Assembly (NCBI GenBank): GCA_000002445.1
Contig: CP000071.1
Location: 2,016,001-2,080,000 of the forward strand
Source of the DNA: Trypanosoma brucei
Taxonomy: Eukaryota
Direction: 5' to 3'
Length of the DNA: 64,000 nucleotides
Position numbers and translations under genes: made by a program. How positions within the stretch are numbered: the stretch's first letter is position 1; each line of letters begins with the position of its first letter. Under the pieces are notes generated by a model that saw only the letters and a program-made list of their open reading frames with translations, did not search any database and had not been told where the DNA came from. Positions 7,844 through 35,962 of the stretch are shown piece after piece.

Positions 7844-9208
7844 ATGCCCATTTCGCAAGTGTTCATCCTTTCTCCTCGTGGTGAGAGAATTGTCTTTAAG
7901 GACTACAAACGAGATGCCCCTTCCAACACCGATGAGACTTTCTTTCGCACTTACAAATTCTGGGATGGAACCCACAGGAGGCTCATTCGGCACTCAGCGC
8001 CTGAGGGCGACTGCCCTCCATTCTTCACGGAAAAGGGTGTACACTTTTGCTTCGTCAAGCGTAACGAACTTCTTTTTGTTTGCACATCGCTGACAAACAC
8101 GTCGCCGAGTCTGACGCTGGACATGCTCCTTCGCATTTTGGAGGTCATCAGGGACTACTTGGGTTCCATCTCAGAAAAAGCAGTGCGACAAAACTTCACG
8201 TTAGTGTACGAGTTGTTGGATGAAGTGCTTGACCTCGGCATACCTCAGGAACTGAGCACGAAACGGCTGCGGCCGTATATTTTTAACGACATCGTTCCTG
8301 TAATGCGGGATAACTTCATATCCATGGATTACCTTGTCGATAGCTTAGGCATCGGGGATATTTTGGAACAGACACGGTGCAGTGATGCAACAGAAACGTC
8401 CGTTATGAAGGCATCTGCGGAGCAGAGAAACGAGATTTATGTGGATTTAATTGAGCGCCTTCATGCCGTATTTGACGCTGCTGGACAGGTGGTGGTGGTA
8501 GGTGTTGATGGCTCAATCGTCATGAAAAGTTTTCTTGTGGGTACCCCAGTTCTTAACCTGTTCTTGAGCGGTGGATTTGGCGTTAGGGGGTATGAGCTTT
8601 CTTCTTCCTTACTTGATTACGTCAACTTCCACGACGAGGCTGACTACAACAAATTCGAGTCTGAGCGACTGCTCTCAATCCACCCACCGGAGGGAGAGTT
8701 CACGCTCATGAGTTATCACTGTAGTATTTCAGCGACCACGATGCCGCTCCATCTCGCACATTCGCTGGTCGAGTTGTCAGAGCATCAGTTAGAACTGGAA
8801 TTGCGCGTGCGGGCGGCTATTCCCGCCGGCCGTTACGCCATAAACGTCACCGTCACTGTTCCTACACCACCGTTCTGTACCGCTGCGGCAGCGGAGCTTA
8901 AGGCGGACGTCTCAGGACAAGCATTTGAGCACAGGAAAGAAGAGTGTTGTGCCGTGTGGAGCATTGAGAAGCTCTTGGGGACGGCCGAAGAGGTCTGCAG
9001 CATTCGTCTCAGTACGGGTACAGCGGTGAAACCGGATGTTCACCGCAAATTAGGCCCCATCTCGGTGGAGTTTGAGGTCCCGCAGTACAGTCTGACAGGT
9101 CTCAGCGTCAAGGCACTGGATATCACAGAGCGTAGCGATGCTTACAACCCGTCACGTTGGATTAGAAACATTGTGTTAGCTGATTCCTACGTATTCCGAA
9201 CACATTGA
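7844..9208 (+). CDS. adaptor protein complex AP-4 mu subunit (454 aa)
   Basis: Strong resemblance to AP-4 mu4 along the whole length. N-terminus 'ISQVFILSPRGERIVFKDYKRD' versus the mu4 consensus '[22 protein letters not shown]'. 'FTLVYELLDEVLDLGIPQ' and 'NEIYVDLIERLHAV' match the longin and mu-homology regions. 'RLLSIHPPEGEFTLMSYHCS' and the C-terminus 'DSYVFR' also match. Confidence 0.8.
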   Translation: MPISQVFILSPRGERIVFKDYKRDAPSNTDETFFRTYKFWDGTHRRLIRHSAPEGDCPPFFTEKGVHFCFVKRNELLFVCTSLTNTSPSLTLDMLLRILEVIRDYLGSISEKAVRQNFTLVYELLDEVLDLGIPQELSTKRLRPYIFNDIVPVMRDNFISMDYLVDSLGIGDILEQTRCSDATETSVMKASAEQRNEIYVDLIERLHAVFDAAGQVVVVGVDGSIVMKSFLVGTPVLNLFLSGGFGVRGYELSSSLLDYVNFHDEADYNKFESERLLSIHPPEGEFTLMSYHCSISATTMPLHLAHSLVELSEHQLELELRVRAAIPAGRYAINVTVTVPTPPFCTAAAAELKADVSGQAFEHRKEECCAVWSIEKLLGTAEEVCSIRLSTGTAVKPDVHRKLGPISVEFEVPQYSLTGLSVKALDITERSDAYNPSRWIRNIVLADSYVFRTH

Positions 9209-9468
9209 AGTGTTTTGTCACTTTTATGGAGTTCTGCACGTCGCAGTGAACGCCGCGATTGGCGGCAAGCTTGTTGAGATTGCTGCTGTCACCACTGTTT
9301 CCTGTGGTTTTCGAGCTTTTATCGTCTCATACTGCTTTATTTGAAATGTATATACGCATATTAGTGTCACCGTCTTATGGCATCCTTTGCTTCCCATTTT
9401 AGTTGTTTCCTCCCCCCTCGTCCAATAAACGAAATAGGTCTCCAACTCAGTTGTCTGGATCGAATACG

Positions 9469-12400
9469 ATGAAGGGCTCGACTTCCAACTCAGCTCTGTG
9501 GGTTACCGCCGACCAGCGCTCGTCCGAGCGGTTAGAAGAGAAAGACGTAGACTATAGTAAGGAGCCGCTTTTCTTCGACATCCCTCCCATACAGCAGGCG
9601 GACGCGGCGGTAAGGCCGGTAAAGTCCACAAGAGGAATTCCATGGAGGCGGATTAGGGAGTCGGGTGTGATTGCCCCAGACCTGGACCTTAAACCGCCGT
9701 CACCCATAAGAGTCGTGATTGATATCAGAGATAAAAGGGAGAGGAAGGGAAGTAAGGACGATGGGGTTTTTGCAGCACTTCCACCACGTAGTGGCTCTTT
9801 CTCCTTGAAAAGCTCACGTGACGTGCCAGGTCCACCGAAAACGGTGGAGGAGTTGTTAGGTGCCCAATGGGGTCCGCAGTGCACAGGGCGGGCATCTTCT
9901 GACAGCGAAACAGGATATGTCAGCCCAAGCCTCGTTGAGGTCGCTACCACTGCGGTGACCACCGCCGCCGGCAACAAACATGTCAACCCGCGCTTTACTG
10001 GAGACGCCTTAATTCTGAGGTCACCTCGGCAGACACGGGCGGCGCTACTTCGGCGGGAGTTCAACGCCAGAACTGCCAGAGAAAAGGTTTTGAGTGCATT
10101 TGCGCAATCGACGCCTCGCTCTTTGCCTACTAGCAAACGTCCATCCATAGACCTTAGCGAAGAATATAACGCTGTGGCCAGGAGAAGGGGCGCCTGGGTA
10201 GGGGTAAAGGGCTTTCCAGCCGCTGCAGCTACGTGTGTAGGCTCAGCGTCGTGCCTGGGGTGGCCGACGGGTCTGCCTCCCCGTGGTAAATCATCCGCGT
10301 CCCCACGAACCATGAAAAGTGCAACGTCCCTTCCCTTTGACCCACACTCTGTCATCGAAAGAAATAGAGAGTGTGATGACAAGAGGAAGGTGCAGGGCAG
10401 CTCCCCGTACTTATCAGCTGTACCATCCCCTGCTCTACGTGGCAACTGCTCGTCGAAAAAGAACACCGGCACCGCCACCAATGAGCATGTTGGCGGTCCG
10501 GCGCCACGCATTGCCAGTTGCAGTATTGCTTCATTTGATGATCATTTTTCAAGCACAAGCCCGAGAAAAGGGACGGTGAACAACGAAAACACAGGGAAGA
10601 GCCTCACTGATTGGCCAATGACGTCGGTGGCACGGCGGACCAATGTTCCATACGAACTTACCTCGTCTGTCGATAGCATTGATACGGAAGAATTCGATTA
10701 TGAAAAGTGCCTGCTGCAAAAAAACGACCACTATGCAACTCAGTCCCACGGCCACCCTGGAAAAAACCGTTGCAAACATTCCTTAGGACACGACAACGAC
10801 TCCTGTCAGCTTAATATTGTTGAAGTCTCTGATGTCACTGAAGTTGATGGGCCAACGAAGGCGGGTCAAGCAGGTCACTGCAGACATAAAATGAATCTGT
10901 CCACGGGTTCGTGTGTGCCTTTTTTTCGGGAACTGCTAGACGGGCGTGGGAAACTGCAGGATGACACCTCCAGTATTGCATTCGAGACGCTGTTAGAACC
11001 AAATGCCATTGTTGGAGCTACTCTTTCTGGTTTACAAACAGCGCGGAGGGCGGAACCGCAAACCACTAATGAGAGGCTGCGCGATGACACCTCCAGTATT
11101 GCATTCGAGACGCTGTTAGAACCAAATGCCATTGTTGGAGCTACTCCTTCTGGTTTACAAACAGCGCGGAGGGCGGAACCGCAAACCACTAATGAGAGGC
11201 TGCGCGATGACACCTCCAGTATTGCATTCGAGACGCTGTTAGAACCAAATGCCATTGTTGGAGCTACTCCTTCTGGTTTACAAACAGCCCGGAGGGCGGA
11301 ACCGCAAACCACTAATGAGAGGCTGCGCGATGACACCTCCAGTATTGCATTCGAGACACTGTTAGAACCAAATGCCATTGTTGGAGCTACTCCTTCTGGT
11401 TTACAAACAGCCCGGAGGGCGGAACCGCAAACCACTAATGAGAGGCTGCGCGATGACACCTCCAGTATTGCATTCGAGACGCTGTTAGAACCAAATGCCA
11501 TTGTTGGAGCTACTCTTTCTGGTTTACAAACAGCGCGGAGGGCGGAACCGCAAACCACTAATGAGAGGCTGCGCGATGACACCTCCAGTATTGCATTCGA
11601 GACGCTGTTAGAACCAAATGCCATTGTTGGAGCTACTCCTTCTGGTTTACAAACAGCGCGGAGGGCGGAACCGCAAACCACTAATGAGAGGCTGCGCGAT
11701 GACACCTCCAGTATTGCATTCGAGACGCTGTTAGAACCAAATGCCATTGTTGGAGCTACTCTTTCTGGTTTACAAACAGCGCGGAGGGCGGAACCGCAAA
11801 CCACTAATGAGAGGCTGCGCGATGACACCTCCAGTATTGCATTCGAGACGCTGTTAGAACCAAATGCCATTGTTGGAGCTACTCTTTCTGGTTTACAAAC
11901 AGCGCGGAGGGCGGAACCGCAAACCACTAATGAGAGGCTGCGCGATGACACCTCCAGTATTGCATTCGAGACACTGTTAGAACCAAATGCCATTGTTGGA
12001 GCTACTCCTTCTGGTTTACAAACAGCGCGGAGGGCGGAACCGCAAACCACTAATGAGAGGCTGCGCGATGACACCTCCAGTATTGCATTCGAGACGCTGT
12101 TAGAACCAAATGCCATTGTTGGAGCTACTCCTTCTGGTTTACAAACAGCGCGGAGGGCGGAACCGCAAACCACTAATGAGAGGCTGCGCGATGACACCTC
12201 CAGTATTGCATTCGAGACGCTGTTAGAACCAAATGCCATTGTTGGAGCTACTCTTTCTGGTTTACAAACAGCGCGGAGGGCGGAACCGCAAACCACTAAT
12301 GAGAGGCTGCGCGATGACACCTCCAGTATTGCATTCGAGACGCTGTTAGAACCAAATGCCATTGTTGGAGCTACTCCTTCTGGTTTACAAACAGCGCGGA

Positions 12401-14205
12401 GGGCGGAACCGCAAACCACTAATGAGAGGCTGCGCGATGACACCTCCAGTATTGCATTCGAGACACTGTTAGAACCAAATGCCATTGTTGGAGCTACTCC
12501 TTCTGGTTTACAAACAGCGCGGAGGGCGGAACCGCAAACCACTAATGAGAGGCTGCGCGATGACACCTCCAGTATTGCATTCGAGACGCTGTTAGAACCA
12601 AATGCCATTGTTGGAGCTACTCTTTCTGGTTTACAAACAGCGCGGAGGGCGGAACCGCAAACCACTAATGAGAGGCTGCGCGATGACACCTCCAGTATTG
12701 CATTCGAGACGCTGTTAGAACCAAATGCCATTGTTGGAGCTACTCCTTCTGGTTTACAAACAGCGCGGAGGGCGGAACCGCAAACCACTAATGAGAGGCT
12801 GCGCGATGACACCTCCAGTATTGCATTCGAGACACTGTTAGAACCAAATGCCATTGTTGGAGCTACTCCTTCTGGTTTACAAACAGCGCGGAGGGCGGAA
12901 CCGCAAACCACTAATGAGAGGCTGCGCGATGACACCTCCAGTATTGCATTCGAGACACTGTTAGAACCAAATGCCATTGTTGGAGCTACTCCTTCTGGTT
13001 TACAAACAGCGCGGAGGGCGGAACCGCAAACCACTAATGAGAGGCTGCGCGATGACACCTCCAGTATTGCATTCGAGACGCTGTTAGAACCAAATGCCAT
13101 TGTTGGAGCTACTCCTTCTGGTTTACAAACAGCGCGGATTATAACTGCTGATATTTCTGAAGATAGGTGCTCGTGGGTCAACTCCACTGTTTCTCTGGAG
13201 TCGCTATCGGACGCTGGCTTGGGAACGAACAACATCGTAGGGGACTTTATGACGTCCGATGTTATTGTGGACTCTTTGGGGGAGAGCCCGCAAGGAAATA
13301 GTGGTGTCAGAGATGAGGTACAGAGTGAATCGCGTGATACCTTTACTGGTGAATCAAGTCTAACACCGCGCAGTCTGAAAAGCTGCTTTGATAACGGAGA
13401 GACTGATTCGCTGCCGCCCATTTTACGCTCCGGAGCACGCTCGGTGATTGTGCCAAACTCTTCTCGCGTGAGTTTTTCTGGAGCAGGCACTAGGAAAACA
13501 TTATCCGAGGTCAGGCGTCCATCATCGGATAATGGGGACGGTTGCGTCATCTCCACTCGTTCCTCCTCCCCTCGACTGTGGACTCCATCGAAGATACGAA
13601 TTAGGGGAGAGGATATACTGGTTCCGAGGCATCATCGCACAGAAAACAAGGGGGTTAGAGTCGACTCCCCGGCGGGTCGTTCCGTTTTGTCAACATACGC
13701 TACGCTCCGCAATAGAAATTATCTGGGGCTTATGCGACGGTACTTTCTCACCTGGAAAGGGTTGGCAAAGCATTGTACGACACGAACTGCATCCACTATA
13801 GGACAATCACCCACTACCTGTGGAAGTTGTGTGGATGACTCGTCATGTGGCTTTGTTCCCACCACCGCCGTGGTAGCTTCACTTGCCGCAGCCGCAGCCG
13901 CAGCCGCCCCCACCTCCTCCAGAGCACATGGCGTCAACAACCCACACAGTGATCCCTCTAAGATACGTAATCTCACTGCGAGGAGTCTTAAGTTGCTTTT
14001 AGGTGACAACTATCACTCGGCAGATTACGTCTACAATCATTTGCGTAGGAAGCGACTTGGGCAACCAAGGTCCCACTATAGAATGGTGCCACCGGATGAA
14101 GATGATTATGTGTCATCGGGCAGCCGCCACAGGAGCATATGTTCAGCAGAAACAAGCTTTTCGTACCCGTCTGACGATGTGACCACGCCGATATCGATGG
14201 CGTGA
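9469..14205 (+). CDS. large repetitive protein (1,578 aa) containing about 17.7 tandem 41-aa repeats
   Basis: The ORF track starts at a TTG at 9403. The first ATG is at 9469. The N-terminal part, about 500 aa, is Ser/Arg/Pro-rich and non-repetitive. The central array repeats the unit 'RLRDDTSSIAFETLLEPNAIVGAT[L/P]SGLQTARRAEPQTTNE'. The C-terminal 350 aa include an Ala run. Confidence 0.75.
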   Translation: MKGSTSNSALWVTADQRSSERLEEKDVDYSKEPLFFDIPPIQQADAAVRPVKSTRGIPWRRIRESGVIAPDLDLKPPSPIRVVIDIRDKRERKGSKDDGVFAALPPRSGSFSLKSSRDVPGPPKTVEELLGAQWGPQCTGRASSDSETGYVSPSLVEVATTAVTTAAGNKHVNPRFTGDALILRSPRQTRAALLRREFNARTAREKVLSAFAQSTPRSLPTSKRPSIDLSEEYNAVARRRGAWVGVKGFPAAAATCVGSASCLGWPTGLPPRGKSSASPRTMKSATSLPFDPHSVIERNRECDDKRKVQGSSPYLSAVPSPALRGNCSSKKNTGTATNEHVGGPAPRIASCSIASFDDHFSSTSPRKGTVNNENTGKSLTDWPMTSVARRTNVPYELTSSVDSIDTEEFDYEKCLLQKNDHYATQSHGHPGKNRCKHSLGHDNDSCQLNIVEVSDVTEVDGPTKAGQAGHCRHKMNLSTGSCVPFFRELLDGRGKLQDDTSSIAFETLLEPNAIVGATLSGLQTARRAEPQTTNERLRDDTSSIAFETLLEPNAIVGATPSGLQTARRAEPQTTNERLRDDTSSIAFETLLEPNAIVGATPSGLQTARRAEPQTTNERLRDDTSSIAFETLLEPNAIVGATPSGLQTARRAEPQTTNERLRDDTSSIAFETLLEPNAIVGATLSGLQTARRAEPQTTNERLRDDTSSIAFETLLEPNAIVGATPSGLQTARRAEPQTTNERLRDDTSSIAFETLLEPNAIVGATLSGLQTARRAEPQTTNERLRDDTSSIAFETLLEPNAIVGATLSGLQTARRAEPQTTNERLRDDTSSIAFETLLEPNAIVGATPSGLQTARRAEPQTTNERLRDDTSSIAFETLLEPNAIVGATPSGLQTARRAEPQTTNERLRDDTSSIAFETLLEPNAIVGATLSGLQTARRAEPQTTNERLRDDTSSIAFETLLEPNAIVGATPSGLQTARRAEPQTTNERLRDDTSSIAFETLLEPNAIVGATPSGLQTARRAEPQTTNERLRDDTSSIAFETLLEPNAIVGATLSGLQTARRAEPQTTNERLRDDTSSIAFETLLEPNAIVGATPSGLQTARRAEPQTTNERLRDDTSSIAFETLLEPNAIVGATPSGLQTARRAEPQTTNERLRDDTSSIAFETLLEPNAIVGATPSGLQTARRAEPQTTNERLRDDTSSIAFETLLEPNAIVGATPSGLQTARIITADISEDRCSWVNSTVSLESLSDAGLGTNNIVGDFMTSDVIVDSLGESPQGNSGVRDEVQSESRDTFTGESSLTPRSLKSCFDNGETDSLPPILRSGARSVIVPNSSRVSFSGAGTRKTLSEVRRPSSDNGDGCVISTRSSSPRLWTPSKIRIRGEDILVPRHHRTENKGVRVDSPAGRSVLSTYATLRNRNYLGLMRRYFLTWKGLAKHCTTRTASTIGQSPTTCGSCVDDSSCGFVPTTAVVASLAAAAAAAAPTSSRAHGVNNPHSDPSKIRNLTARSLKLLLGDNYHSADYVYNHLRRKRLGQPRSHYRMVPPDEDDYVSSGSRHRSICSAETSFSYPSDDVTTPISMA
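10960..13139 (+). repeat. 123-bp tandem repeat array inside the CDS (about 17.7 copies)
   Basis: Period measured directly. 'gatgacacctccagtattgc' starts at 10960 and recurs at 11083 and every 123 nt thereafter until about 13139. Units differ at only three nucleotide positions: ctt/cct (Leu/Pro), gagacg/gagaca, and acagcg/acagcc. Confidence 0.95.
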
Positions 14206-15741: not shown

Positions 15742-16598
15742 CTATAAAGAAACTCGGCACACTCTCGTACACAATAGATGGTAAATGAAAACACCATTCT
15801 GGTCTTCATAGACGGTTAGAAGCTCGCTTTTGCAAGATACCATTGACTGACGCTAGTAACGGTAAACACTGATGCCGTACTGGGTTCCGTGCGTAGATCG
15901 TAATTGAATATGTTAATCGGCTAGGACATAGATCCAAACCAACAGTGTCTTCTGATGGGTTCCTCGCTCGTTCTCTTTCCCTCACCTTATCTCCTTATAT
16001 TGCCTTTAGGTTTACAGTAGGTTGCTCATATGTTCCCGCACATAGTTAGAGTTATTTGAAATTTCGACCATTTCATTACAGTGGCGACTGATAGTGGGAA
16101 TGGCGTTACCGTTGGTGAAGCCACCGGAGATGCGGTAATAAAACTCAGGAGCCTGTATTTCTGCTTTTTTTGCGGAGAAGTATCATCACATTCCAGCCGA
16201 TGTGTATGATTCTGCTGTAGCGGGGCCTGTGGTTGGTACCTTCGTTGTGATAAGATGGCTGATGGCGGATTTTTTTTTTCTTCGGGCTGTGGTGTCGCCA
16301 CCCTACGGTGTGTAACAAGATCAAATAAAATGACGCTATAGATTTGTAGAACGTTGGTTGCGGAACTTTCGGCCCTTCATTTACCCTTGGTTGCCGCAGG
16401 CGGGAGGCAAAGGGAATCTTCGCGTCCACAGACTTCATTCGCTTACCCGCGTAGCCGACGTCATCAGCTCTCACATCCTTTAATAACAGACTTCAGCACA
16501 TCGTTCTCTTCGTTGCTCCCCCTCCTCTACCGTGCTTTTGCTCCCATTTTTTTTTTGAAAAAAAAAAACTCGTGGTGTAACAATTGAAAGCAAGTGCA

Positions 16599-19500
16599 AT
16601 GGAAGAGTTGGTGGACGTACTCAAGCGGGCACAGTCCGCTGTGCTCCATGCGCAGTACGACTTGATCCAACTCCGCCACCTGCAGGACGAGGGCAAAGAG
16701 GCTATCAAAACCTCAGCAGACTATGTGAATAACGATGCGTTGCTGCATCAACTGAGGGCGCAGAGTAAACAAGAAGATGCAGTGCAGCATCTAGAAAGGG
16801 GCGTGCGGCTGATGCGAAACCTACTAAAGGACCCAATACAACAAAAACCGAACAACAACGCGGTGCCGCAGGAGGCACCTCAACAACAACAACAAACGGA
16901 AAGGAGCGAGCAGGAGTTGAAAATAAATGCGGTGAAGCAGGCAATGCAGCGCTACATCGAGGGCCAGCGCAACCTCAAACAACAGTGGGAGTGGGAATTA
17001 CATGCCAAACTCACAGCTAAGGACGACTGCATCGACGAAGTGCGCCACAACGCAGCAGATTTAGTGAGACGGGTAACGGAGCGGCGGGTGCTTGCGCGCG
17101 CGCTGCATAAGTGGCGTAGGCGCACGGCAAGTCTGGTCGCTGGTTGCGAAAGAAACATTGTAGCGCAGGAGCTAGGAAGAATGAGGACGACACTTGCCAA
17201 GAGCTTTGCAGCAGCTCGGGCTGTAGTTGTTTTGCGGCAGCGCTGTTTCCACCGATGGCACTTGCAGATGATGCGCTCGTTGATGCGAAAGGAACAGCAA
17301 AAGCATGAGGAGCTGAGTATGAAGCTACAACACGCGGAAGAGGAGCTGCAACGGCAACACGATGTACTTATAGAAGCTTTAGATGCCAAAAGACCTGACG
17401 CGGGACTGAAGCTGCAACGACAGCAGCATGAGGAAATATTGCGGCTTAGGTCAGTGGTAGACGGGATGGTGCGTGAGTTCAAGGAGCGGACCGACACTTA
17501 CATTCGACAGCAGGAGGAACTATCGCAGTACTATGAGGAGCGCCAGGCGATGCTCATGGAGGAAGTAGTCATCGCTGAAGTACGTCGACAACAGCAGGAT
17601 GAAGTGTTGCGGTGTAGGGTATTTGAAACTTCGAAGCATAAGCAGTGGACCGAGGCGCTTTGTGGTCTTGTTGCTGATTGTGTCAAGGAGAAAGCACTTG
17701 CACTGTATAACGAGGCGCTGGCAGCGAACAACGATTCGAATCAGTATTGTAACGAATTGGAAGCCCTGTTGTTGCAGCAGCGGCACGAGGTAATAGAGTC
17801 GCTGAAAGCTCGCGTTCAAGAACTTGAGCGCCGCTGCGCGGAGGCGGGGGAACTCTTAGATGGGTGCAATAATGAGTTGCATGAGCGAAACATCGTCATT
17901 CGTAGCCTGAAGGAGACCTTCTCACAACGGTTACTTCGTGTCACTACCACGCAACGTATGCATGGCTACTGGGTCCTGTGGCAGAGACATGCGGAGGTTC
18001 GTCGCCAAAATAGGCGGCTACACGATGAAAGAATAGTGGCCCAGCAGCAGCGGCTAGTAGTAATGGAGGAGATGGACCGACGGTGTATTATTCAGTTGGA
18101 AGATTCGGCTCTGAAGTTGGTCGGGTCGTGGAGGAGCTGCTCGCAAGCGGAGGTGTTGTCGGAGGAGACGCTTGCTGAGCTTTCGGAGACGAGTACGCTT
18201 TGCGCTTCACTTCAAGAGGAAGTGGGGCAGCTTAGGTCGTACAACGCTGAGTTACTAGATACACAAAATGCTCAAGTGTCGGCCTGGTTTGCTTCAAAAC
18301 TAGAGTGCTTGCTCGAAGCAGAGCATGCACGGCGCATGGAGCTACGCTACAGCGAGCTGCGTACTCGCAAGGCTCTTGATAGAATGACAGCGGATCACAA
18401 CACCGCGGTGATGAGACAGAAATGTGCTGCAATGCAGGTCCAGCTCGACAACTCGCTGAAGCAGCTTCATCATGTTGGTGCTCTCGTTGCTGAGTATTGT
18501 GCGCGGAGTGCATTCAATTGTTGGTTGTTGAGCACTGAGCGAAGGCGACACAAGCGAGTGGCAGACAAAACGAGGTCGTGTATCACTATTGGCTCCGTCA
18601 GGAGCCTGGACGAGTCGACGCAGCACACCATTAGTGCACCAAGCAAGGAATCAGGGTCACTTCAGATGCAACCACACCATTCGGGGTGGGACAACGCGAG
18701 TGAAGTATTACTGCAGCGAGGGCAAGGTGTGGATCAGCAAAGTAACGTCACAAACATGGAGCGCTTGCGGTATAGTACCACCAGTGGGGTCAGCTCGTCT
18801 CCCACGGAAACGTGTGTGCGGGTGGGGGACGTAGAGCAATTGATGGGGGTGTGTCACCCGCCATGGACACCCTTAGTTGCTGTCAGTGGGGATCCCCATA
18901 AAAGTCCCGGTGGTATACAGTTGAACAGTGTCATGCATTTCATTTTAGCTGAACGGGACACGGTTATAGAGTACACTCACAACGTCGCGAGTGCGGTGTG
19001 GAGCGCCGCTGCGGATGCTATTGTTGCACAGCAGTGTGCGCACAAAGCGATAGTGGAGGAACTACAGCAGTACCAGTCTTTTCTGGAAAAGCGCATAGCC
19101 GTTTCTGGAGCCGCAGATGCAGAGGCGCCTTACCAGCAGCAGGAGGCAGCTGATCGCATCAAGTTCTTGCAGGAGCAGTGGGAGAAGTCGGAATCAAACA
19201 CCAACAACTTGAGACTGCAGCTGGAGCAGCTGCAGGCACAACAGGAAAAGGAAAGGGCAACTCAGAAGCGAATAGAATCTCAACTTGCGTCAGTAAGAGA
19301 AAGTAGGGACCGCTACGAGAAGGAGGTGGAGGTGTTGCAGCGGCGTGTAGGGGAGCAGTGGGAGCATAATGAGCTTGTTAAAGAGAAACTTTTGGCCTCC
19401 CAGCAAGACATCAAATCACTTCAGGCCAAAATAGAGGAAGAAAAGAACCGGTATAAGGAGGATGTTGGTGCATTGCGGAGACGGATAGACGAATACAAGG

Positions 19501-21164
19501 TCCAGGATGAGAAGGCACACCAAAAGCTGCTCGATGCACAAAAACAAATAGAGTCGCTACTTGCCACCTTGGAGGAGGAGAGGTATCATCATCAGGTGGA
19601 AGTAATGAAGTTAGAGGAGCAAGTGGAGGATCAAAAGTTACAAGAGGAAAAGGCGCAGAGAGCCGTTGATATTGCTAGTGCAAGCCAAAGTCGAGAGATC
19701 TGCATGCTCAGGGCGGAGACGGCGCGCCTGTCTGCACAGTTAGAGGAGGCCCAGAAGGAGAACGAACTAAACAGTGCTCTACGTGACACCATAAGGCAGT
19801 ATGAACGGACGCTCGCTTCGTTGGAGAAAGATGTAGTTGTACGTACAGGTGAATTCAGTGCCTCCCTGCAAACGCTGGCGGACTTGGACGGTTTTTCCAA
19901 TACACTGCTCCTACGCCACAAGCAAGATGTGGAGCAGTTGTTCGAGTTATCGAAAGTGGTGGGAGGAAGCGGTGGCGGATATCTTATAGAGTCAGCAAAG
20001 GCTGCGTCAGAAGGACAGCAGGCCGAGGAAGTAGACGCGAGTACTGCAGAGGGGACTGTGAAGAAGCAAGAGCAGCAAAACAGTGGGGAGCTGCAGCAGC
20101 GGCTGAGCGAATCGCAACAGCTTGTGGACTCGCTGCTCTCTACGCTGGAGAAGATCAACGAACAACACAAGAAGGAGGTGACTGAGCTGCAGCAGCACTT
20201 GAAGGAGCATCGGCGACGGGAGGAGAAAATGCAGAAAGCAGCCGCTGCCGCGCGTGCAAACTATGAGCGAGAAATGTGTGTGCTACGGGCGGAAGGAAAG
20301 CGACTCACTGCCCAGGTTGAGGAGCTCATGGCGAGTACCAGTACTGCTGAGCAGAAGCGGGAGTTAGTGGGGCTGGAAACACAGAAGCAACTGGAAGAGG
20401 CACACAACGAGGTGAAAGGGCTTAAAACGGAGCTGAAGACAATGGCGATGCATCATGCCATTGAGTGTGACCGCCTCCGCACAACGGTCGACGAGCAACG
20501 AACCACTATTGAATCACTAAAGAAGGGGATATGCGGTAGCCACAAGGATGGTACCGGCTATGGACTTGCAACCGGCGATTTGCTGCAGCTTATGGAGGAG
20601 ATGGTTGGCTTGGCCTGTGAGCATACGAACGAAAAGGCGCAGTTGTATTTAACGTGCTGCGCAGGGGAGTGGTTCAGGCAAGAGTGCATAGAGGGCGAGA
20701 GGAGGTACAGCAGGGGCGCATCGGAGTTACGTGAGTGCATGGAACTGTTGTTAACGACACTCGGCCGAACCAATGCCCAATACCAAAAGGAAAAAGATGA
20801 CAATGAAAAACAAATGGAGGCATTGCAGCAACTGATTCGGCAGCAGCAGCAGCAAAATGATGCCGAACAAGAAGCAGGGGCAGAGGAAGGGTGCAAACGG
20901 CCCACAGAGTGTCCGCTGCGTTCTTCTGCAGGCGCAGAGGGTGGAGTTACATCATCTCAGCCATGGCTTTGCTGTCGTTGCGATTCGCCACTGCAGCGTG
21001 AAAGGAGCAAAGCGGAGGTAGTTCAATCTATTGCCCGTTACTCCGATATGTTACAACAACAACACGACAAAAATCGCAGCCGGCTTGAGCAACTCAACAA
21101 ACTCGTGGCCCAGGTCGATGAGCTTATGGAGTATGGCCGCTCTCTTTCCCTCCCCGAGCAATAA
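16599..21164 (+). CDS. large coiled-coil protein (1,521 aa)
   Basis: The ORF track starts at a TTG at 16584. The first ATG is at 16599 ('MEELVDVLK'). Most of the sequence is heptad-like and rich in Q, E, R and L ('LQLEQLQAQQEKERATQKRIESQLASVRESRDRYEKEVEVLQRR...'). It resembles cytoskeletal, flagellar or basal-body coiled-coil proteins. Confidence 0.65.
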   Translation: MEELVDVLKRAQSAVLHAQYDLIQLRHLQDEGKEAIKTSADYVNNDALLHQLRAQSKQEDAVQHLERGVRLMRNLLKDPIQQKPNNNAVPQEAPQQQQQTERSEQELKINAVKQAMQRYIEGQRNLKQQWEWELHAKLTAKDDCIDEVRHNAADLVRRVTERRVLARALHKWRRRTASLVAGCERNIVAQELGRMRTTLAKSFAAARAVVVLRQRCFHRWHLQMMRSLMRKEQQKHEELSMKLQHAEEELQRQHDVLIEALDAKRPDAGLKLQRQQHEEILRLRSVVDGMVREFKERTDTYIRQQEELSQYYEERQAMLMEEVVIAEVRRQQQDEVLRCRVFETSKHKQWTEALCGLVADCVKEKALALYNEALAANNDSNQYCNELEALLLQQRHEVIESLKARVQELERRCAEAGELLDGCNNELHERNIVIRSLKETFSQRLLRVTTTQRMHGYWVLWQRHAEVRRQNRRLHDERIVAQQQRLVVMEEMDRRCIIQLEDSALKLVGSWRSCSQAEVLSEETLAELSETSTLCASLQEEVGQLRSYNAELLDTQNAQVSAWFASKLECLLEAEHARRMELRYSELRTRKALDRMTADHNTAVMRQKCAAMQVQLDNSLKQLHHVGALVAEYCARSAFNCWLLSTERRRHKRVADKTRSCITIGSVRSLDESTQHTISAPSKESGSLQMQPHHSGWDNASEVLLQRGQGVDQQSNVTNMERLRYSTTSGVSSSPTETCVRVGDVEQLMGVCHPPWTPLVAVSGDPHKSPGGIQLNSVMHFILAERDTVIEYTHNVASAVWSAAADAIVAQQCAHKAIVEELQQYQSFLEKRIAVSGAADAEAPYQQQEAADRIKFLQEQWEKSESNTNNLRLQLEQLQAQQEKERATQKRIESQLASVRESRDRYEKEVEVLQRRVGEQWEHNELVKEKLLASQQDIKSLQAKIEEEKNRYKEDVGALRRRIDEYKVQDEKAHQKLLDAQKQIESLLATLEEERYHHQVEVMKLEEQVEDQKLQEEKAQRAVDIASASQSREICMLRAETARLSAQLEEAQKENELNSALRDTIRQYERTLASLEKDVVVRTGEFSASLQTLADLDGFSNTLLLRHKQDVEQLFELSKVVGGSGGGYLIESAKAASEGQQAEEVDASTAEGTVKKQEQQNSGELQQRLSESQQLVDSLLSTLEKINEQHKKEVTELQQHLKEHRRREEKMQKAAAAARANYEREMCVLRAEGKRLTAQVEELMASTSTAEQKRELVGLETQKQLEEAHNEVKGLKTELKTMAMHHAIECDRLRTTVDEQRTTIESLKKGICGSHKDGTGYGLATGDLLQLMEEMVGLACEHTNEKAQLYLTCCAGEWFRQECIEGERRYSRGASELRECMELLLTTLGRTNAQYQKEKDDNEKQMEALQQLIRQQQQQNDAEQEAGAEEGCKRPTECPLRSSAGAEGGVTSSQPWLCCRCDSPLQRERSKAEVVQSIARYSDMLQQQHDKNRSRLEQLNKLVAQVDELMEYGRSLSLPEQ

Positions 21165-25099: not shown

Positions 25100-28000
25100 A
25101 TGTCTCTCAGTAGTCCGGTAACGACCATGCGCCCACAGCTGCATGGTATGAAGGAACTTTGCAGGTTCCTTGGTGGGAAGAGGCCAATTGAGAGATTGCT
25201 TATCGCTAACAACGGATTGGCTGCAGTAAAGGGAATCGACTCTGTTCGCTCCTGGTTATACGTGCACACTGGCAATACAGAGGCGGTGGAGTTTACTGTG
25301 ATGGCGACGCCGGAGGACCTTCACGCGAATGCAGAGTTTATTTCTCTCTCAGACAGACACGTTGCAGTCCCTGGAGGCCCCAACAGAAACAACTACGCCA
25401 ACGTTGACATCATTATGCAGACAGCCGTACAGAACTCCTGCAATGCCATCTACCCGGGCTGGGGTCATGCCTCGGAGAATCCGGCGTTGCCCCGCGAATG
25501 TGTGAAAACTGGTGAGAGGGTTATATTTCTCGGCCCCTCTGCAAAAGCGATGTTTGCTTTGGGCGACAAAATTGCGTCGACCATTGTGGCGCAGTCGAAC
25601 GGCGTGCCAACAGTGCCCTGGAGTGGTGATGAGATCCTATTACCACCGGGTGTGTTTGAGGTGGATCCGTTGGTGTATGAAAAAGCGTATATAAGTACTG
25701 CAGAGGAATGTGAAGAACTGTGTGGCCGCCTTGGTTTCCCTGTCATGATTAAAGCCTCGGAGGGCGGTGGTGGCAAAGGTATTCGCCGCTGTCTCCGCAA
25801 GGAGGATGTGCGGGACATGTTTTTTGCCGTCGCAGAAGAGGTAAAGGGCTGCCATATTTTCGTCATGCGTATGTTAGAGAACGTGCGGCATCTCGAAGTT
25901 CAGTTGCTGGCAGATGACTACGGCGACTGTATTGCCGTGCACACACGTGACTGCTCGGTGCAGCGACGACACCAAAAGATCATTGAGGAGGGGCCTGTGT
26001 TTGGTGTGGATGCCTCAATTATCAACGACATGGAGGCAGCAGCCGTGCGTCTCGCCAAGGCTGTAAAATACCGCGGTCTTGGTACGGTGGAGTACATGTA
26101 CGACAAATCCACGCAGAAGTTTTTCTTCTTGGAGCTCAACCCGCGTATACAGGTTGAACACCCCGTTTCAGAGCTTGTGTCTGGTGTGAACCTTCCGGCT
26201 GCGCTGCTGTGTGTTGGCATGGGAGTTCCGCTTCACAGAATCCCGGAGGTACGAACTTTCTTCGGAGAGCAACCGTACGATACCTCGCCGATAGATTTCA
26301 CCCGGCGCCGCTGTCTTGCGGCGAAAGGTCACACCATCGCCGTACGCGTTACGGCAGAGGACACAGATGAAGGCTTCCGTCCAACGTCGGGCCGTGTGGA
26401 AGAGATTGCTTTCAAAAACAGCAAGGAATGCTGGGGTTATTTTTCCGTTGGTGCGGGTGGGGAGATACACCAGTTTGCAGATTCACAATTTGGACACATT
26501 TTTTCTTCTGCGGAAACGCGTGAGGAAGCGCGACGTGGGATGGTGATGGCCCTGCGTAACCTTGTTATTCGTGGTGAAATACATACGTCCGTGTCATACG
26601 TCTTGGGGCTTCTTGAGAGGCCCGAATTTTGCAACTGTGACGTCAGTACGGATTGGCTAGACCGCCTTATATCCGCGCGAATTCTGCAGAGTGCGCAGCA
26701 TAACCAGCAAGATGTATACATCGCTCTTACTGCAGCGTGCACACTGCGGATGCTATCGAAGCGAGATGAAAACCACGGCAGGTACGTTTCATTTCTCAGT
26801 GCGGGGCACGTTCCCACAACTGAATTCTTGAGCAACTACGAATCGGAGTCGTACGTCAATAGATCCACAAACTTTAACGTCACCATGGGTCTAACAAGCC
26901 CAACCGAGATATCTATTTCTCTTAACGGCAGTGTGATCTCTGTTCCGTTTCGTAAGTTGAAGTCTGGTGCGCTGCAGCTCCGTGTGGGAGGAAAAACAGC
27001 AATTGCGTACGCAGAGAAAGAACCATCAAGTCTGCGCATTTCTATTGGTGGAAAGGAAACAACATTCACAGGTGACATTGATCCGACTAAGTTGTTTGCT
27101 GCGGTTCCCGGTCGGTTTGTTCGGTACCTTGTGTGTGATGGGGGTCATGTGGAAGAAGGAACTATTGTGGCAGAGGTGGAAGTGATGAAGATGATTTTGC
27201 CACTGAGGGCGTCAACAGTGGGTGCGCTGCACCACAAAGTAGCCCCTGGTAGCACCATTGCCTTGGGTACGCTGGTTGCGGAAATAACCCCGGACGACCC
27301 AAGTAAGGTTGCACGACCGAGGGAAGCGACAGAGCCGTGGCCGCCAGAACTGCTTGATGCTGCAGATAAGGAAGACCAGATGGAGCGCCTCGACAGCTTA
27401 GCCCGAGCGCGGCGTGGAGCAGAGGCGTTGTGGAATATGTTACGTGGGTATCACTTTAGCGGTATCCCACTGGACCGACGGCTTAAGTCGGCTTTCTCAG
27501 ACCTTGGAGCGCTCAGCCTTTCCTCAGTGTCGCTCACTGCGCTTAACTTACCATTTATTTCGGAGAGGGTTGTCGGTTCTGACCACGCAACGCCGAACTA
27601 TAAACTCCGCGTCGTTTTGGAGACGCTCATTTCCGAGTATGTGGAGGTCGAGCGCTCATTTGTGAGGTGCAACCGGCAGGAAGCTATTCATCAAGTGCGT
27701 GAAACTACAGGAGATACGCGGAAGGTATTTGAGATTGACTTTGCTCATAATCAGCCCTCTCACCACGGTGTCATTAAGGCCGTGCTGAATACCTTGGAGA
27801 ACAATATGGTACTGTTAAAGTCTCTCATGCCCTCACTTTCCACCCTGGTAAATTTGCGCTCCACTGGCGATGGGACACTTCAGATGCAAGCTCGTTACTT
27901 ACTCCGACAGTGCAGTCTTCCTTCCTTCGTGGAGCGCAAGATCGCCTTCACAAGGGAACTAGAGGAGGGTTCCATGATGGACCTCATCCAGGGAAGCTAT

Positions 28001-33999: not shown

Positions 34000-35962
34000 T
34001 CCCTCTTTTTTGTTTTTTTTTTTCTTGTCCTTCTTCTTCCTTTTTTTTCCCCCATCTTTTTTCCCTCTTTCATTTCTTCTTTCAGTTTTGTGGCATTTGG
34101 TGTGTAATGATTGGAACGTTGGAACACAAGACGAGTTGAAATGACAAGAAAATATGTCTTTAGTTTTAGCCCCATTTCCCCTCAGTAAAAAAAAAAAAGT
34201 CTATCAAAAGCAGCGTTACCGGTGGATGAGAGGTGCTTTCTTTTTCTTTTTTTTCTTTTTTTCTTTTCTTTCTTTTTTTTTCTTTTTTTTTTTTTACTGG
34301 AAACACAAGGGTAATAATTAGCAAAAAAAAAAAAGATGACAAATAATATTGGAAACATTTGTTTTAAATGTATACATGACCAGAATTTTCTTCTGTTTTT
34401 TTTTCTTTTTACCGCGTGCCCTTATGCATGGAAATGGGAAATTACCAATTACACTTACTGCACACATGTTAATCGGATAAAGGAAGGGTTGAGGAAAAGA
34501 AACAAATAAATAGCACTCGAGCGAAAGAGAAAAAGTAAAATAAAATAAAATAAAATAGAAAGAAAATAAATAAATAAAAGAGATGCAAGAATTAAAATGA
34601 AAACGATAATAACACTTACAGTTCCGATGAAACGGAGGGAATGTATAATAAATAGCGAAAACAAAAGATGAGGGGACAAAAAGTAATGTTACAGATTACA
34701 AATCAAACATTACTTGAAGGATGAGGAAAATTTGTTGTTGTTGTTTTTGTTGTTTCGCATTGCTGGAAGAAGAGGGGAAAAAAAGCAATGGGAAATTAGA
34801 AAGTAGGAATGAAATGAAATGAAATGAAATGAAATAAAAGCAAAAGGGAAACCGTATACGTGTTTAACCGGTGTATTTCAAGGGATTTAACAAGGAGCAA
34901 AATTACATCCATAAAAGAAAACGGACAAACAAATCATAAGGAATAGGGGAAAAGAAAAAAGGAAGAAGAAAAAAGAAAAAGGAAGCAGCATTTAACGGAT
35001 TAATGCTTACATTCATATTTATATATATTTATTTCTTTTTTTTTTTTGATGTTGGGTTGGGTGACTGTATTTCCTTAATTTTCTTCTTTTTTTTTTTGTT
35101 TGTTTGGACAAAACCCATCAGGTTATATGCTCAGTACTGCTACCGTCATTACACTGGTGGTTTCTTTTGTTTCTTGTCTCATTTTCACTCAACCCCCGAT
35201 GTTCCATATTTCACCTTTTGTTGTTTTTGCTGCTGTTTTGTTTTTTTTTTCCTTCTTTTTTTTAAAAAAATTTTATCTTACCTTATCTTATCTTATCTTT
35301 TTTTCTCTTTATTTGACTTGTCTTATTTATGCTTATTTGCTGCGACTGTTTCTTGTTTGTTTTGTTTTGCATTTTTTTTTTCACCTCTTTATTCTTCTTT
35401 AGCAGGCGTTGTTTATTATTTCATTTGGTCTCATTCCTAAGCGTATAACTTGTGCATGTGTGTAGAGGCGTGGCGGACAATCTTTTTCTCTTTTTTTTTT
35501 CTTATTATTCTGTGTTGTATTTTCACTGTTGTTTTATATCTTCTTGTTTATTAATGAATTTGACTAGATGGGGGAAATAAACCGAAACTTATGAATGAAT
35601 AAATGGAGTGAATTTCCCAACAACGACGAAAGCGATCATGTAAATATATTTGTGCACTTGTATGTAAAAAAATAAATAAATAAATAATAATAATAATAGT
35701 ATATATAAAAGGGAGGAGAAAAGGAAACAATTGTTGTATTTATATTGCTTCCTCAACATGAGAAGGAGGTGTTGACTGAAAAAAATTCCAAAAATAAAAA
35801 TAAAAAGATAAAATAAAATAGAAGAGGGAAGTGTGCAATGGTAAAGGGTGTAAAGGGAAAATAGCGATAGAAAGTCGTAGTGTTCGGTGCCACCGTAATT
35901 CTCCTTTTGCTTATTTGCTTTTTAATTTTTACTTTTTACTTTTTTGACTTGTTTTGTTTTGT

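What the first reader, a model, noticed from the sequence alone, without database searches (positions are those of the whole stretch)
10960..13139. Near-perfect 123-bp (41-aa) tandem array, about 17.7 copies, inside a 1,578-aa protein
All units are identical except at three nucleotide positions. One of these is non-synonymous: ctt/cct, giving Leu or Pro in 'GAT[L/P]SGLQ'. The variants occur in different combinations across units. This points to ongoing concerted evolution by unequal crossing-over or gene conversion, rather than an ancient repeat.

Large proteins built from near-identical repeats are a known trypanosomatid theme: microtubule-associated and FAZ proteins and immunodominant antigens. 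Those I can recall have unit lengths of 38 or 14 aa, not 41. I cannot assign this unit to a named family from memory.

The opposite strand carries an 893-aa ORF (10875..13556) purely because the repeat lacks stop codons there. Copy number is likely to vary between strains and the array is likely to be collapsed in short-read assemblies.
Basis: seen in the sequence. Interest (0 to 1): 0.6.

Follow-up and report, generated by a model that had tools for sequence, protein, structure and literature searches.

The report
Young repeat array in trypanosome gene
A real, nearly perfect 41-amino-acid repeat array sits inside an already annotated but uncharacterised Trypanosoma brucei gene (Tb927.8.7060), arose recently in one of two duplicated gene copies, and differs in copy number between assemblies, which makes it a tidy but ordinary case of a trypanosome repeat protein.

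Summary
Window 10960-13138 holds 17.7 copies of a 123-bp in-frame unit that vary at only three sites, inside a 1,578-aa ORF (9469-14205, + strand).

The window is T. brucei brucei TREU927 chromosome 8. The protein is an exact match to XP_847536/Q57YR3, "hypothetical protein, conserved", almost certainly Tb927.8.7060.

The array is young and evolving in concert:
- It is absent from the chromosome-4 paralogue Tb927.4.5330 and from the T. congolense orthologue.
- Copy number is 17.7, 8.7 and 3.7 in three assemblies whose flanks are 99.4-99.5% identical.
- Units are more alike within a strain than between strains.
- A short-read assembly breaks at both edges of the array.

No known repeat family, MAP, FAZ protein or antigen matches the unit. 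The unit is acidic, and the flanks carry no Pfam domain.

The protein is expressed: pS1331 was detected. The paralogue's serine-proline site in the most conserved block is strongly cell-cycle regulated.

AlphaFold2 gives a confident β-solenoid for ten units. AF2 does this for about 41% of random perfect repeats, so I discount it.

Verdict: a real feature, a new member of a known kind, of modest interest.

The parts
9469..14205 (+). Coding sequence of a 1,578-aa protein (about 170 kDa), identical to XP_847536.1/AAZ13470.1/Q57YR3 of T. brucei brucei TREU927 chromosome 8. It is almost certainly Tb927.8.7060.
   Evidence: - The exact sequence look-up matches that record.
- Gene order fits Jackson 2007 supplementary file 5: acetyl-CoA carboxylase lies at 25100-31645 and an AGC kinase at 32672-33994.
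- Jackson 2007 pairs Tb927.4.5330 with Tb927.8.7060.
- A phosphosite reported as Tb927.8.7060 S1331 falls on a serine in this protein.
10960..13138 (+). Tandem array of 17.7 copies of a 123-bp (41-aa) unit, DDTSSIAFETLLEPNAIVGAT[L/P]SGLQTARRAEPQTTNERLR. It is acidic (pI 4.6, net charge -2 per unit) and spans aa 498-1223.
9469..10959 (+). Non-repetitive N-terminal region of 497 aa. It is basic (pI 9.3) and rich in Ser, Arg and Pro. It has no Pfam domain and AF2 confidence is low.
9970..10107 (+). The most conserved block of the family (aa 168-213, GNKHVNPRFTGDALILRSPRQTRAALLRREFNARTAREKVLSAFAQ). It contains an S185-P site (10021-10023) followed by a predicted helix.
   Evidence: - The block is conserved in the chromosome-4 paralogue and partly in T. 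congolense.
- It is the only stretch that reaches pLDDT of about 59.
- The equivalent S187 of Tb927.4.5330 is a cell-cycle-regulated phosphosite.
13139..14202 (+). Non-repetitive C-terminal region of 355 aa (pI 8.9). It includes:
- the conserved block TGESSLTPRSLKSC (13345-13386);
- the phosphosite S1331 (13459-13461);
- a conserved helix, ...LMRRYFLTWKGLAKH (13699-13773);
- the conserved C-terminal motif SRHRSICSAETSFSYPSDDV (14122-14181).
10875..13556 (-). An 893-aa antisense ORF that is not a gene. It is a by-product of a stop-free reverse frame of the repeat unit.
   Evidence: - Searches show the ORF and the stop-free frame.
- Every other ORF of at least 200 aa in the window, apart from the two antisense ORFs that lie inside this gene, is on the + strand.
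9370..9440 (+). A polypyrimidine-rich tract followed by AG dinucleotides upstream of the ATG. I infer that it is the trans-splice acceptor region.
   Evidence: The sequence was read. The function is inferred from general knowledge of trypanosome mRNA processing and was not tested.

Best explanation
The array is a young, in-frame coding minisatellite inside an expressed T. brucei gene, Tb927.8.7060.

**The gene family.** The gene belongs to a small, fast-evolving family that I found only in African trypanosomes. T. congolense has the gene, recorded as two near-identical sequences. T. brucei has two copies, made by the chromosome 4/8 segmental duplication. Family members share short conserved blocks within sequence that has no recognisable domain and is probably largely disordered.

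**How the array arose (inferred).** After the duplication, a 123-bp segment of the poorly conserved central linker of the chromosome-8 copy was amplified. Unequal recombination, replication slippage and gene conversion have since expanded, contracted and partly homogenised it. The result is strain-specific unit variants and different copy numbers.

**What it does (inferred).** The conserved flanking motifs carry the family's core function. These are a proline-directed phosphosite next to a basic helix, an RRYFxTWK helix and a C-terminal HRSICSAETSF(S/T)YPSD motif. By paralogy, that function is most likely that of a cytoplasmic, cell-cycle-regulated phosphoprotein. The acidic array then acts as a length-variable spacer or multivalent module between the basic N- and C-terminal parts. 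It is not a microtubule-binding repeat.

**Shown versus inferred.** Shown: the anatomy, the gene identity, the taxonomic distribution, the differences between strains, the concerted-evolution signature, and expression with phosphorylation. Inferred: the mutational mechanism, the disorder, the spacer role and the link to the cell cycle.
For: **Array anatomy and frame.**

**Gene identity.**

**Family distribution.**
- The word-indexed search of 5.8 billion proteins found only the T. b. gambiense and T. b. equiperdum orthologues and Tb927.4.5330.
- The exhaustive HMMER search of 1.84 billion representatives added only T. congolense CCC92475/TCIL3000_8_7120, at E = 3e-44.
- Neither the paralogue nor the T. 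congolense protein has the array.

**Strain differences.**
- Copy number is 17.7, 8.7 and 3.7, with flanks 99.4-99.5% identical.
- Units differ less within a strain than between strains (0 of 2000 permutations).
- The polymorphic unit sites 30, 65 and 84 are shared between strains. Site 116 (Arg/Lys) varies only in gambiense and equiperdum.

**Selection.** Jackson 2007 reports omega of 0.6 for the pair, with 40 codons under negative selection by FEL.

**Expression.** pS1331 was detected in bloodstream-form Lister 427.

**Paralogue.**
- pS187, in the conserved ILGS*PRQTR block, rises about 9- to 13-fold from early S phase to early G2/M and falls again in late G2/M.
- Its curated GO component is cytoplasm.
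- Its mRNA is cell-cycle regulated.
- The equivalent S185 in Tb927.8.7060 follows an Arg, so its tryptic peptide would be only 'SPR'. That would explain why it goes undetected (sequence).

**Structure and charge.**
- The flanks have no Pfam or NCBIfam domain, and a family profile that includes the repeats matched no PDB sequence.
- The full-length AF2 model has mean pLDDT 29.
- The array has pI 4.6, against 9.3 and 8.9 for the flanks.
Against: - There is no localisation or phenotype for Tb927.8.7060 itself. The ID does not appear in the held TrypTag supplements or in the main text of any searched paper other than Jackson 2007.
- The unit's similarity to the syntenic linker is not significant: p of about 0.07 for T. 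congolense and 0.21 for the chromosome-4 paralogue. Origin from a pre-existing linker segment is therefore plausible but not shown.
- AF2 on ten units alone predicts a confident β-solenoid (pLDDT 83.7), which conflicts with a disordered spacer.
- The low confidence of the full-length model may only reflect a three-sequence alignment.
- Copy-number differences between assemblies could be partly assembly collapse rather than biology.
- The S-P site is Q-P in T. congolense, so that phosphosite does not define the family.
- Tb927.8.7060 is absent from the cell-cycle-regulated mRNA list that contains its paralogue.
Confidence: 0.7

Rival explanations
1. The expanded array folds into a β-solenoid with one coil per 41-aa unit. 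Amplification would then have created a new rigid, rod-like domain inside a formerly disordered linker.
For: - AF2 in single-sequence mode on 10 units gives mean pLDDT 83.7 and pTM 0.80. The model is all β, with strands of 20, 7 and 6 residues per unit and turns at EPNA, GL and EP.
- The only non-family hits in the exhaustive HMMER search are right-handed β-helix proteins, at E = 5e-8 and 1.6e-6.
- BLASTP aligns the 41-aa unit to a 46-aa double PbH1 turn at 47 bits. None of 1000 arrays built from shuffled units reached that score.
Against: - AF2 gives confident β-solenoids for 32 of 78 (41%) random perfect repeats, and all 78 random repeats also found UniRef90 hits at E < 0.001 (Pratt et al. 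2025, PMC11795689).
- The five AF2 models disagree, with pLDDT of 83.7, 82.6, 67.7, 50.7 and 30.3.
- In the full-length context, with 3.7 units, the repeats have pLDDT of about 26 and no secondary structure.
- The Pfam Beta_helix model itself is not hit.
- The same repeated query also gives low E-values to unrelated families: DUF1490 at 5e-9, TMP-TENI at 9e-8 and thiamine-phosphate synthase at 2e-6. Repetition therefore inflates these scores.
- The AF2 topology has one coil per 41 aa, whereas the BLAST alignment implies two PbH1 turns per unit. The two lines of evidence do not agree with each other.
- In that topology, alternating residues of ERLRDD and one of R29/R30 would have to stack as buried like charges (sequence reasoning).
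- Foldseek found no PDB match at E <= 1e-3, and the highest TM-score normalised to the query was 0.26.
Confidence: 0.12
2. It is a cytoskeleton-associated repeat protein of the MARP, FAZ1 or GM6 type, whose repeats bind microtubules or the flagellum attachment zone.
For: - Near-perfect repeats in large proteins are typical of such trypanosome proteins (my own knowledge).
- The flanks are basic, with pI 9.3 and 8.9.
- There is a trivial Pfam FAZ1_C hit at E = 0.086.
Against: - The unit is acidic (pI 4.6). The repeats of the best-known trypanosome microtubule-binding proteins are basic (my own knowledge).
- No MAP, FAZ or antigen protein was recovered in either protein search.
- The FAZ1_C hit scores 13.4 bits against a cut-off of 27.6.
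- The paralogue's curated GO component is cytoplasm.
- The paralogue and the T. congolense orthologue have no repeats at all, so the family's function does not depend on them.
Confidence: 0.1
3. The biologically relevant property of the array is immunological. It would be a multivalent, immunodominant B-cell epitope exposed when parasites lyse, like other trypanosomatid tandem-repeat antigens. This reading is compatible with the best explanation.
For: - It has a high copy number of an identical 41-mer in a protein that is expressed in bloodstream forms.
- Tandem-repeat proteins are often dominant antibody targets in trypanosomatid infections, as stated in the abstract of a Leishmania paper (PMC2830943).
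Against: - There are no serological data.
- The peptide sequence appears in none of the searched papers.
- The protein's abundance is unknown.
- Goto et al. 2011, which screened T. brucei tandem-repeat proteins, is not in the held library.
Confidence: 0.25
4. The array, or at least its copy number of 17.7, is an assembly artefact.
For: - Copy number differs 2- to 5-fold between assemblies whose flanks are nearly identical.
- A short-read assembly cannot cross the array.
Against: - Three independent assemblies place an array of the same unit at the same site and in frame.
- The order of unit variants in TREU927 is irregular rather than a simple stutter.
- Each strain has its own variant spectrum.
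- From memory, TREU927 chromosome 8 was finished from BAC clones by Sanger sequencing.
Confidence: 0.05

Closest known systems
Tb927.4.5330 (XP_844681, Q580Q2), the T. brucei chromosome-4 paralogue
   Same: - It shares the same conserved blocks in the same order: the N-terminal MKG start, the PRFTGDALIL.SPRQTRA.LLRRE helix, IERNRECDDK.KV, EF.YEKC, VE.SD, the RRYF.TWK helix and the C-terminal HRS.CSAETSF motif.
- It is 32% identical over the aligned columns.
- Jackson 2007 lists it as pair 7 of the chromosome 4/8 duplicons.
   Different: - It is 883 aa long and has no tandem array; its central linker is about 139 aa of unrelated sequence.
- Its mRNA and its S187 phosphosite are cell-cycle regulated. 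Comparable data for Tb927.8.7060 were not found.
- It is further from the T. congolense orthologue than the chromosome-8 copy is (23% against 31% identity).
T. congolense IL3000 CCC92475.1/G0USW2 and TCIL3000_8_7120 (G0USX1)
   Same: - It is an orthologue with the same conserved blocks and the same C-terminal motif (E = 3e-44).
- Its locus tag places it on chromosome 8.
   Different: - It has no array, and its linker of about 205 aa is single copy.
- The S-P site is Q-P.
- Its existence contradicts the database label 'T. brucei spp.-specific protein'.
Trypanosomatid near-perfect tandem-repeat proteins (MARP with 38-aa units, FAZ1 with 14-aa units, GM6, NUP-1), recalled from my own knowledge
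   Same: - It is a large protein with many nearly identical in-frame units.
- Copy number is likely to be polymorphic.
- The units are homogenised by recombination.
   Different: - There is no sequence similarity.
- The unit is 41 aa long and acidic.
- No cytoskeletal localisation is known.
- The array is confined to one paralogue in one species complex.
Right-handed parallel β-helix proteins (Pfam PF13229, PbH1 repeats), for example hits P0018 and P0019
   Same: - There is a periodic match of about 24% identity between the 41-aa unit and a 46-aa double turn.
- The AF2 model of the array belongs to the β-solenoid class.
   Different: - The Pfam model is not matched.
- There is a 5-residue gap per unit.
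- The AF2 coil length is 41 aa, not about 23.
- The array arose recently from a linker, so common ancestry is implausible.
- Both signals are of kinds known to arise as artefacts with perfect repeats.

Membership tests
Tb927.8.7060 / Tb927.4.5330 / TcIL3000_8_7120 family (unnamed) | The conserved blocks occur in the same order: the PRF...PR..RA..LRRE helix, I.RNR, YE(K/R)C, V.VSD, SP.LW, RRYF.TW(K/R) and the C-terminal HRSIC(S/T)A(E/D)TSF(S/T)YPSDDV. | tested here: met
   The alignments show the blocks. HMMER gives E = 0 for the paralogue and 3e-44 for T. congolense.
Tb927.8.7060 / Tb927.4.5330 / TcIL3000_8_7120 family (unnamed) | Syntenic position in the chromosome 4/8 duplicon. | tested here: met
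   The gene order mu-adaptin 4, this gene..., acetyl-CoA carboxylase, AGC kinase matches Tb927.8.7050 to Tb927.8.7110. Jackson 2007 lists the pair as number 7.
Concerted-evolving coding minisatellite (trypanosomatid tandem-repeat protein, generic kind) | An in-frame unit, near-identical copies, and units more alike within a genome than between genomes. | tested here: met
   The unit is 123 bp (41 codons) with 99% matches. Mean unit differences are 0.9-1.3 within a strain and 1.75-2.85 between strains, with 0 of 2000 permutations reaching the observed gap.
Concerted-evolving coding minisatellite (trypanosomatid tandem-repeat protein, generic kind) | Copy number is polymorphic between isolates. 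| tested here: inconclusive
   Three assemblies give 17.7, 8.7 and 3.7 copies. Assembly collapse cannot be excluded without reads that span the array.
MARP / MAP-type microtubule-binding repeat proteins | Sequence similarity to the 38-aa MARP unit or to other MAP repeats. | tested here: not met
   No such protein appeared among the hits of either database search. The unit is 41 aa long.
MARP / MAP-type microtubule-binding repeat proteins | A basic repeat that can bind acidic tubulin tails. | tested here: not met
   The array has pI 4.6 and a net charge of -2 per unit.
FAZ1 | 14-aa repeats and a FAZ1_C domain (PF23404). | tested here: not met
   FAZ1_C scores E = 0.086 and 13.4 bits against a cut-off of 27.6, and only within the repeat.
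Right-handed parallel β-helix (PF13229 / PbH1) | A match to the family profile. | tested here: not met
   Beta_helix and NosD are not listed for the whole protein at E <= 0.01 or for a 3-unit piece at E <= 10. P0018 and P0019 match the profile at 1e-96 and 8e-153.
Right-handed parallel β-helix (PF13229 / PbH1) | A β-helical fold with coils of about 22-23 residues. | tested here: inconclusive
Sfi1-type centrin-binding repeat (consensus AX7LLX3F/LX2WK/R, recalled from memory) | A match to the consensus and to the Pfam Sfi1 model, usually in many copies. | tested here: not met
   A single LMRRYFLTWK segment fits the core LLxxxFxxWK, but the upstream Ala is out of register (sequence). No Sfi1 family appears in the Pfam scan at E <= 10. 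This is a lead only.

The most novel reading that the evidence does not exclude
Within the short time since the T. brucei chromosome 4/8 duplication, amplification of a 41-aa piece of a disordered linker created a new folded β-solenoid rod. Its length would vary between strains, from about 4 to about 18 coils. This would be a natural example of a domain born de novo by repeat expansion, sitting in a protein whose paralogue is a cell-cycle-regulated phosphoprotein.
Probability: 0.1. Interest if true: 0.7.

Novelty: new member of a known kind. Interest (0 to 1): 0.3.

Why it matters
The practical value is modest:
- The analysis attaches an identity (Tb927.8.7060), an evolutionary history and a first functional lead to an anonymous repeat. 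The lead is the cell-cycle-regulated proline-directed phosphosite in the family's most conserved block.
- It shows that the family's 'T. brucei spp.-specific' label is wrong, because T. congolense has an orthologue.
- It documents a locus that breaks short-read assemblies and produced a spurious antisense gene model in T. equiperdum OVI.
- The array could serve as a strain-typing minisatellite and is a candidate repeat antigen.
- The pair of paralogues, one with the array and one without, is a natural experiment on what a young repeat expansion does to a protein.
- It is a cautionary case for reading AlphaFold2 models and E-values of near-perfect repeats.

Tried and rejected
- **Pfam hits on the whole protein** (DUF1490 at 5e-9, TMP-TENI at 9e-8, Thi4, Neurensin), plus the NCBIfam thiamine-phosphate-synthase hits. 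I rejected them. No single stretch passes on its own, the families are unrelated to each other, and the scores are sums over identical units.
- **β-helix homology**. I kept it only as a low-probability rival, for the reasons given there.
- **Origin of the unit from a single-copy ancestral segment.** MAFFT aligned the T. congolense segment 'DSTVAFEN...TARRKQ' and 'GATLSKIAKSAV' to the unit. Shuffle tests are not significant: 200 of 2000 against the whole protein and 216 of 3000 against the syntenic interval.
- **Sfi1/IQ-like reading of RRYFLTWK.** There is no profile support.
- **'EGF/laminin domain' label in Jackson 2007, Table 5.** No such Pfam domain was found.
- **Literature.** Searches for the gene ID, the UniProt accession and the peptide returned only Jackson 2007. 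The held TrypTag supplements do not contain the ID. Goto 2011 and Urbaniak 2013 are not held. The TbPLK proteomics paper has no held supplements.
- **Other searches.** The afdb50 fold library was unavailable. Rfam and tRNA scans of the window found nothing. A profile search against PDB sequences found nothing.
Full report
**1. The observation**

Tandem Repeats Finder reports a single strong array in the region: 10960-13138, period 123, 17.7 copies, 99% matches, no indels, score 4267. No other array with a long unit exists anywhere in the window.

A unit-by-unit comparison shows 17 full units and one 88-nt partial unit. They differ only at unit positions 30 (G/A), 65 (T/C) and 84 (G/C). Positions 30 and 84 are synonymous third-codon positions. 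Position 65 changes CTT to CCT, which is Leu to Pro.

Five haplotypes occur: GTG x7, GCG x6, ACG x4, GCC x1 and ACC x1. Sites 30 and 84 show all four combinations. Units 11-13 and 14-16 repeat the order GTG-GCG-ACG, which points to multi-unit duplication steps.

The array is in frame with an ORF that runs from ATG 9469 to the stop at 14205 and encodes 1,578 aa. The 893-aa antisense ORF at 10875-13556 exists. It is open only because one reverse frame of the unit lacks stop codons; two of the six frames are open across the array. For a 41-codon unit that is unremarkable.

**2. What and where it is**

The 1,578-aa protein is an exact match to XP_847536.1/AAZ13470.1/Q57YR3, 'hypothetical protein, conserved', on the 2,481,190-bp chromosome 8 of Trypanosoma brucei brucei TREU927. 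The upstream gene (7844-9208) is mu-adaptin 4.

Apart from two antisense ORFs that lie inside this gene, every ORF of at least 200 aa in the window is on the + strand, as expected for a trypanosome polycistron.

Several facts identify the gene as Tb927.8.7060:
- Downstream lie acetyl-CoA carboxylase (25100-31645) and an AGC kinase with a PH domain (32672-33994). From memory, the carboxylase is Tb927.8.7100.
- Jackson 2007 (PMC2212663) lists Tb927.8.7020 to Tb927.8.7110 in this order. It pairs Tb927.8.7060 with Tb927.4.5330 as pair 7 of the chromosome 4/8 duplicons.
- Tb927.4.5330 is the paralogue my search found.
- A phosphosite published as Tb927.8.7060 S1331 falls on a serine in this protein.

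A pyrimidine-rich tract with AG dinucleotides lies just upstream of the ATG.

**3. The family**

A word-indexed search of 5.8 billion proteins used a query with the array collapsed to two units. It found only the T. b. gambiense DAL972 orthologue (1,209 aa), a T. b. equiperdum orthologue (1,004 aa) and Tb927.4.5330 (883 aa, about 30% identity).

An exhaustive HMMER search of 1.84 billion representatives, using a profile of the two paralogues, added one more relative at E = 3e-44. This is T. congolense IL3000 CCC92475.1. A near-identical second record is TCIL3000_8_7120. The database label 'T. brucei spp.-specific protein' is therefore not accurate.

The three lineages share a series of short conserved blocks separated by poorly conserved sequence rich in Ser, Arg, Pro and Thr:
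- HV.PRF...PR..RA..LRRE
- I.RNR
- YE(K/R)C
- V.VSD
- SS/M L...S/E L
- SP.LW
- L..(L/M)RRYF.TW(K/R)..K
- a C-terminal S.HRSIC(S/T)A(E/D)TSF(S/T)YPSDDV

Other evidence on the flanks:
- Neither flank has a Pfam or NCBIfam domain, and a profile of the three-sequence family alignment (repeats included) matched no PDB sequence.
- AlphaFold2 on the 1,004-aa orthologue with the three-sequence alignment gives mean pLDDT 29. Only the helix after the S-P site (about 59) and the RRYF.TWK helix (about 45) stand out.
- The flanks are basic (pI 9.3 and 8.9) and the array is acidic (pI 4.6).
- Jackson 2007 found omega of 0.6 for the pair, the highest in the neighbourhood, yet 40 codons are under negative selection.
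- The chromosome-8 flanks are closer to T. congolense (31% identity) than the chromosome-4 copy is (23%).

**4. The array is young and evolves in concert**

Neither the chromosome-4 paralogue nor the T. congolense protein has any tandem repeat. Their central linkers are 139 and 205 aa of single-copy sequence. The array therefore arose in the chromosome-8 copy after the duplication, which Jackson 2007 considers specific to T. brucei.

I fetched the orthologous loci. With flanks 99.4-99.5% identical to the window, DAL972 has 8.7 units and the T. b. equiperdum assembly GCA_003543875.1 has 3.7.

The same three polymorphic sites recur in all strains. An Arg/Lys site (nt 116) and one Thr/Ala site (nt 28) appear only outside TREU927. 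Each strain's array is dominated by different variants. Mean differences between units are 0.9-1.3 within a strain and 1.75-2.85 between strains, and 0 of 2000 label permutations reach this gap. That is the classical signature of concerted evolution.

The T. equiperdum OVI assembly, which I recall to be short-read, does not cross the array. One contig ends 29 nt into it (window 10988) and another starts 127 nt before its end (window 13012). On the first contig the annotators called the 319-aa antisense ORF as a gene.

Whether the unit derives from a recognisable ancestral linker segment cannot be shown. The best local similarities are not significant.

**5. Expression and functional leads**

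- **Tb927.8.7060.** pS1331 was detected in bloodstream-form Lister 427 (PMC11408851, supplementary dataset 1).
- **Tb927.4.5330, phosphorylation.** In the cell-cycle phosphoproteome of Benz and Urbaniak (PMC6907760), pS187 lies in the family's most conserved block (ILGS*PRQTRAALLRRE). It has log2 FCmax 4.18. Its profile across early G1, late G1, early S, late S, early G2/M and late G2/M is 0, -0.42, 3.16, 3.69, 3.76, 0.59. It belongs to cluster Phos-09, its curated GO component is 'cytoplasm', and it carries a flag for cell-cycle-regulated mRNA.
- **Tb927.4.5330, mRNA.** Archer 2011 lists it among cell-cycle-regulated mRNAs, together with the window's Tb927.8.7080, but does not list Tb927.8.7060.
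- **Why S185 would be missed.** In Tb927.8.7060 the equivalent S185-P follows an Arg, so trypsin would release only 'SPR'. That would hide the site from standard proteomics (sequence).
- **Limits.** T. congolense has Q-P at that position. I found no localisation or phenotype for Tb927.8.7060.

**6. Structure of the repeats**

Separately, the only non-family hits of the HMMER search are right-handed β-helix proteins. BLASTP aligns the unit to a 46-aa double turn at 47 bits, which none of 1000 shuffled-unit arrays reach.

I discount both signals, for these reasons:
- Pratt et al. 2025 (PMC11795689) showed that AF2 gives high-confidence β-solenoids for 41% of random perfect repeats. They also showed that all such random repeats find database hits at E < 0.001.
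- Here the same query also gives E of about 1e-6 to 1e-9 to unrelated families.
- The Pfam Beta_helix model is not matched.
- The two signals imply different coil lengths.
- The AF2 topology forces stacked like charges into the core.
- The repeats are unstructured in the full-length model.

A folded solenoid remains possible, at about 10-12%.

**7. Explanation and verdict**

The best-supported reading is a young coding minisatellite in the variable linker of an expressed, largely domain-free phosphoprotein. It was produced and partly homogenised by unequal recombination, slippage and gene conversion. Its length differs between strains.

The family's core function must lie in the conserved flanking motifs, because the paralogue and the orthologue lack the array. 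By paralogy, that function is probably cytoplasmic and linked to the cell cycle. The acidic array most likely acts as a spacer or multivalent module. It is not a microtubule-binding repeat.

It is not a member of any named repeat family. It is a new member of the familiar class of trypanosomatid near-perfect repeat proteins, in a gene that is already annotated. Interest is modest, at 0.3.

Noticed in passing
window 34000-37300: A gene-free stretch of about 3.3 kb with GC of 0.29-0.40, against about 0.51 elsewhere. It holds poly-T, AAAAT, TTG and other low-complexity runs and lies between the AGC kinase gene and the next ORF. No tRNA or Rfam family lies in it.
   Followed up: partly
window 9552-10511 (-), equal to L004 11130-12089 (-): A 319-aa antisense ORF inside the N-terminal part of the gene is annotated as a gene in T. 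equiperdum OVI. There the contig ends 29 nt into the array and the true gene was not called. It is probably a spurious gene model.
   Followed up: yes
window 16584-21164 (+), probably Tb927.8.7080: This 1,526-aa protein has no Pfam domain. Its mRNA is in Archer 2011's cell-cycle-regulated set, with nearly the same profile as Tb927.4.5330.
   Followed up: no
P0003 (Tb927.4.5330) residue S187; equivalent to window 10021-10023 (S185): The S-P site in the family's most conserved block is among the strongly cell-cycle-regulated phosphosites in procyclic T. brucei (log2 FCmax 4.18, high from early S to early G2/M). In Tb927.8.7060 the tryptic peptide would be only 'SPR', so standard proteomics would miss it.
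   Followed up: partly
P0017/P0020 (T. congolense IL3000): The family carries the UniProt label 'T. brucei spp.-specific protein', yet it has a clear T. congolense orthologue at E = 3e-44. T. congolense has two near-identical records, CCC92475 and TCIL3000_8_7120.
   Followed up: yes
window 9469-14205 compared with P0003 and P0017: The chromosome-8 copy, which gained the array, has the more conservative flanks: 31% identity to T. congolense, against 23% for the chromosome-4 copy. The two T. brucei paralogues are only 32% identical to each other.
   Followed up: partly
window 10960-13138 as a protein query: A near-perfect repeat gives misleadingly low E-values to unrelated profile families: DUF1490 at 5e-9 (above its whole-protein cut-off), TMP-TENI at 9e-8, and an NCBIfam thiamine-phosphate synthase at 2e-6. 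None has a single stretch that passes on its own.
   Followed up: yes
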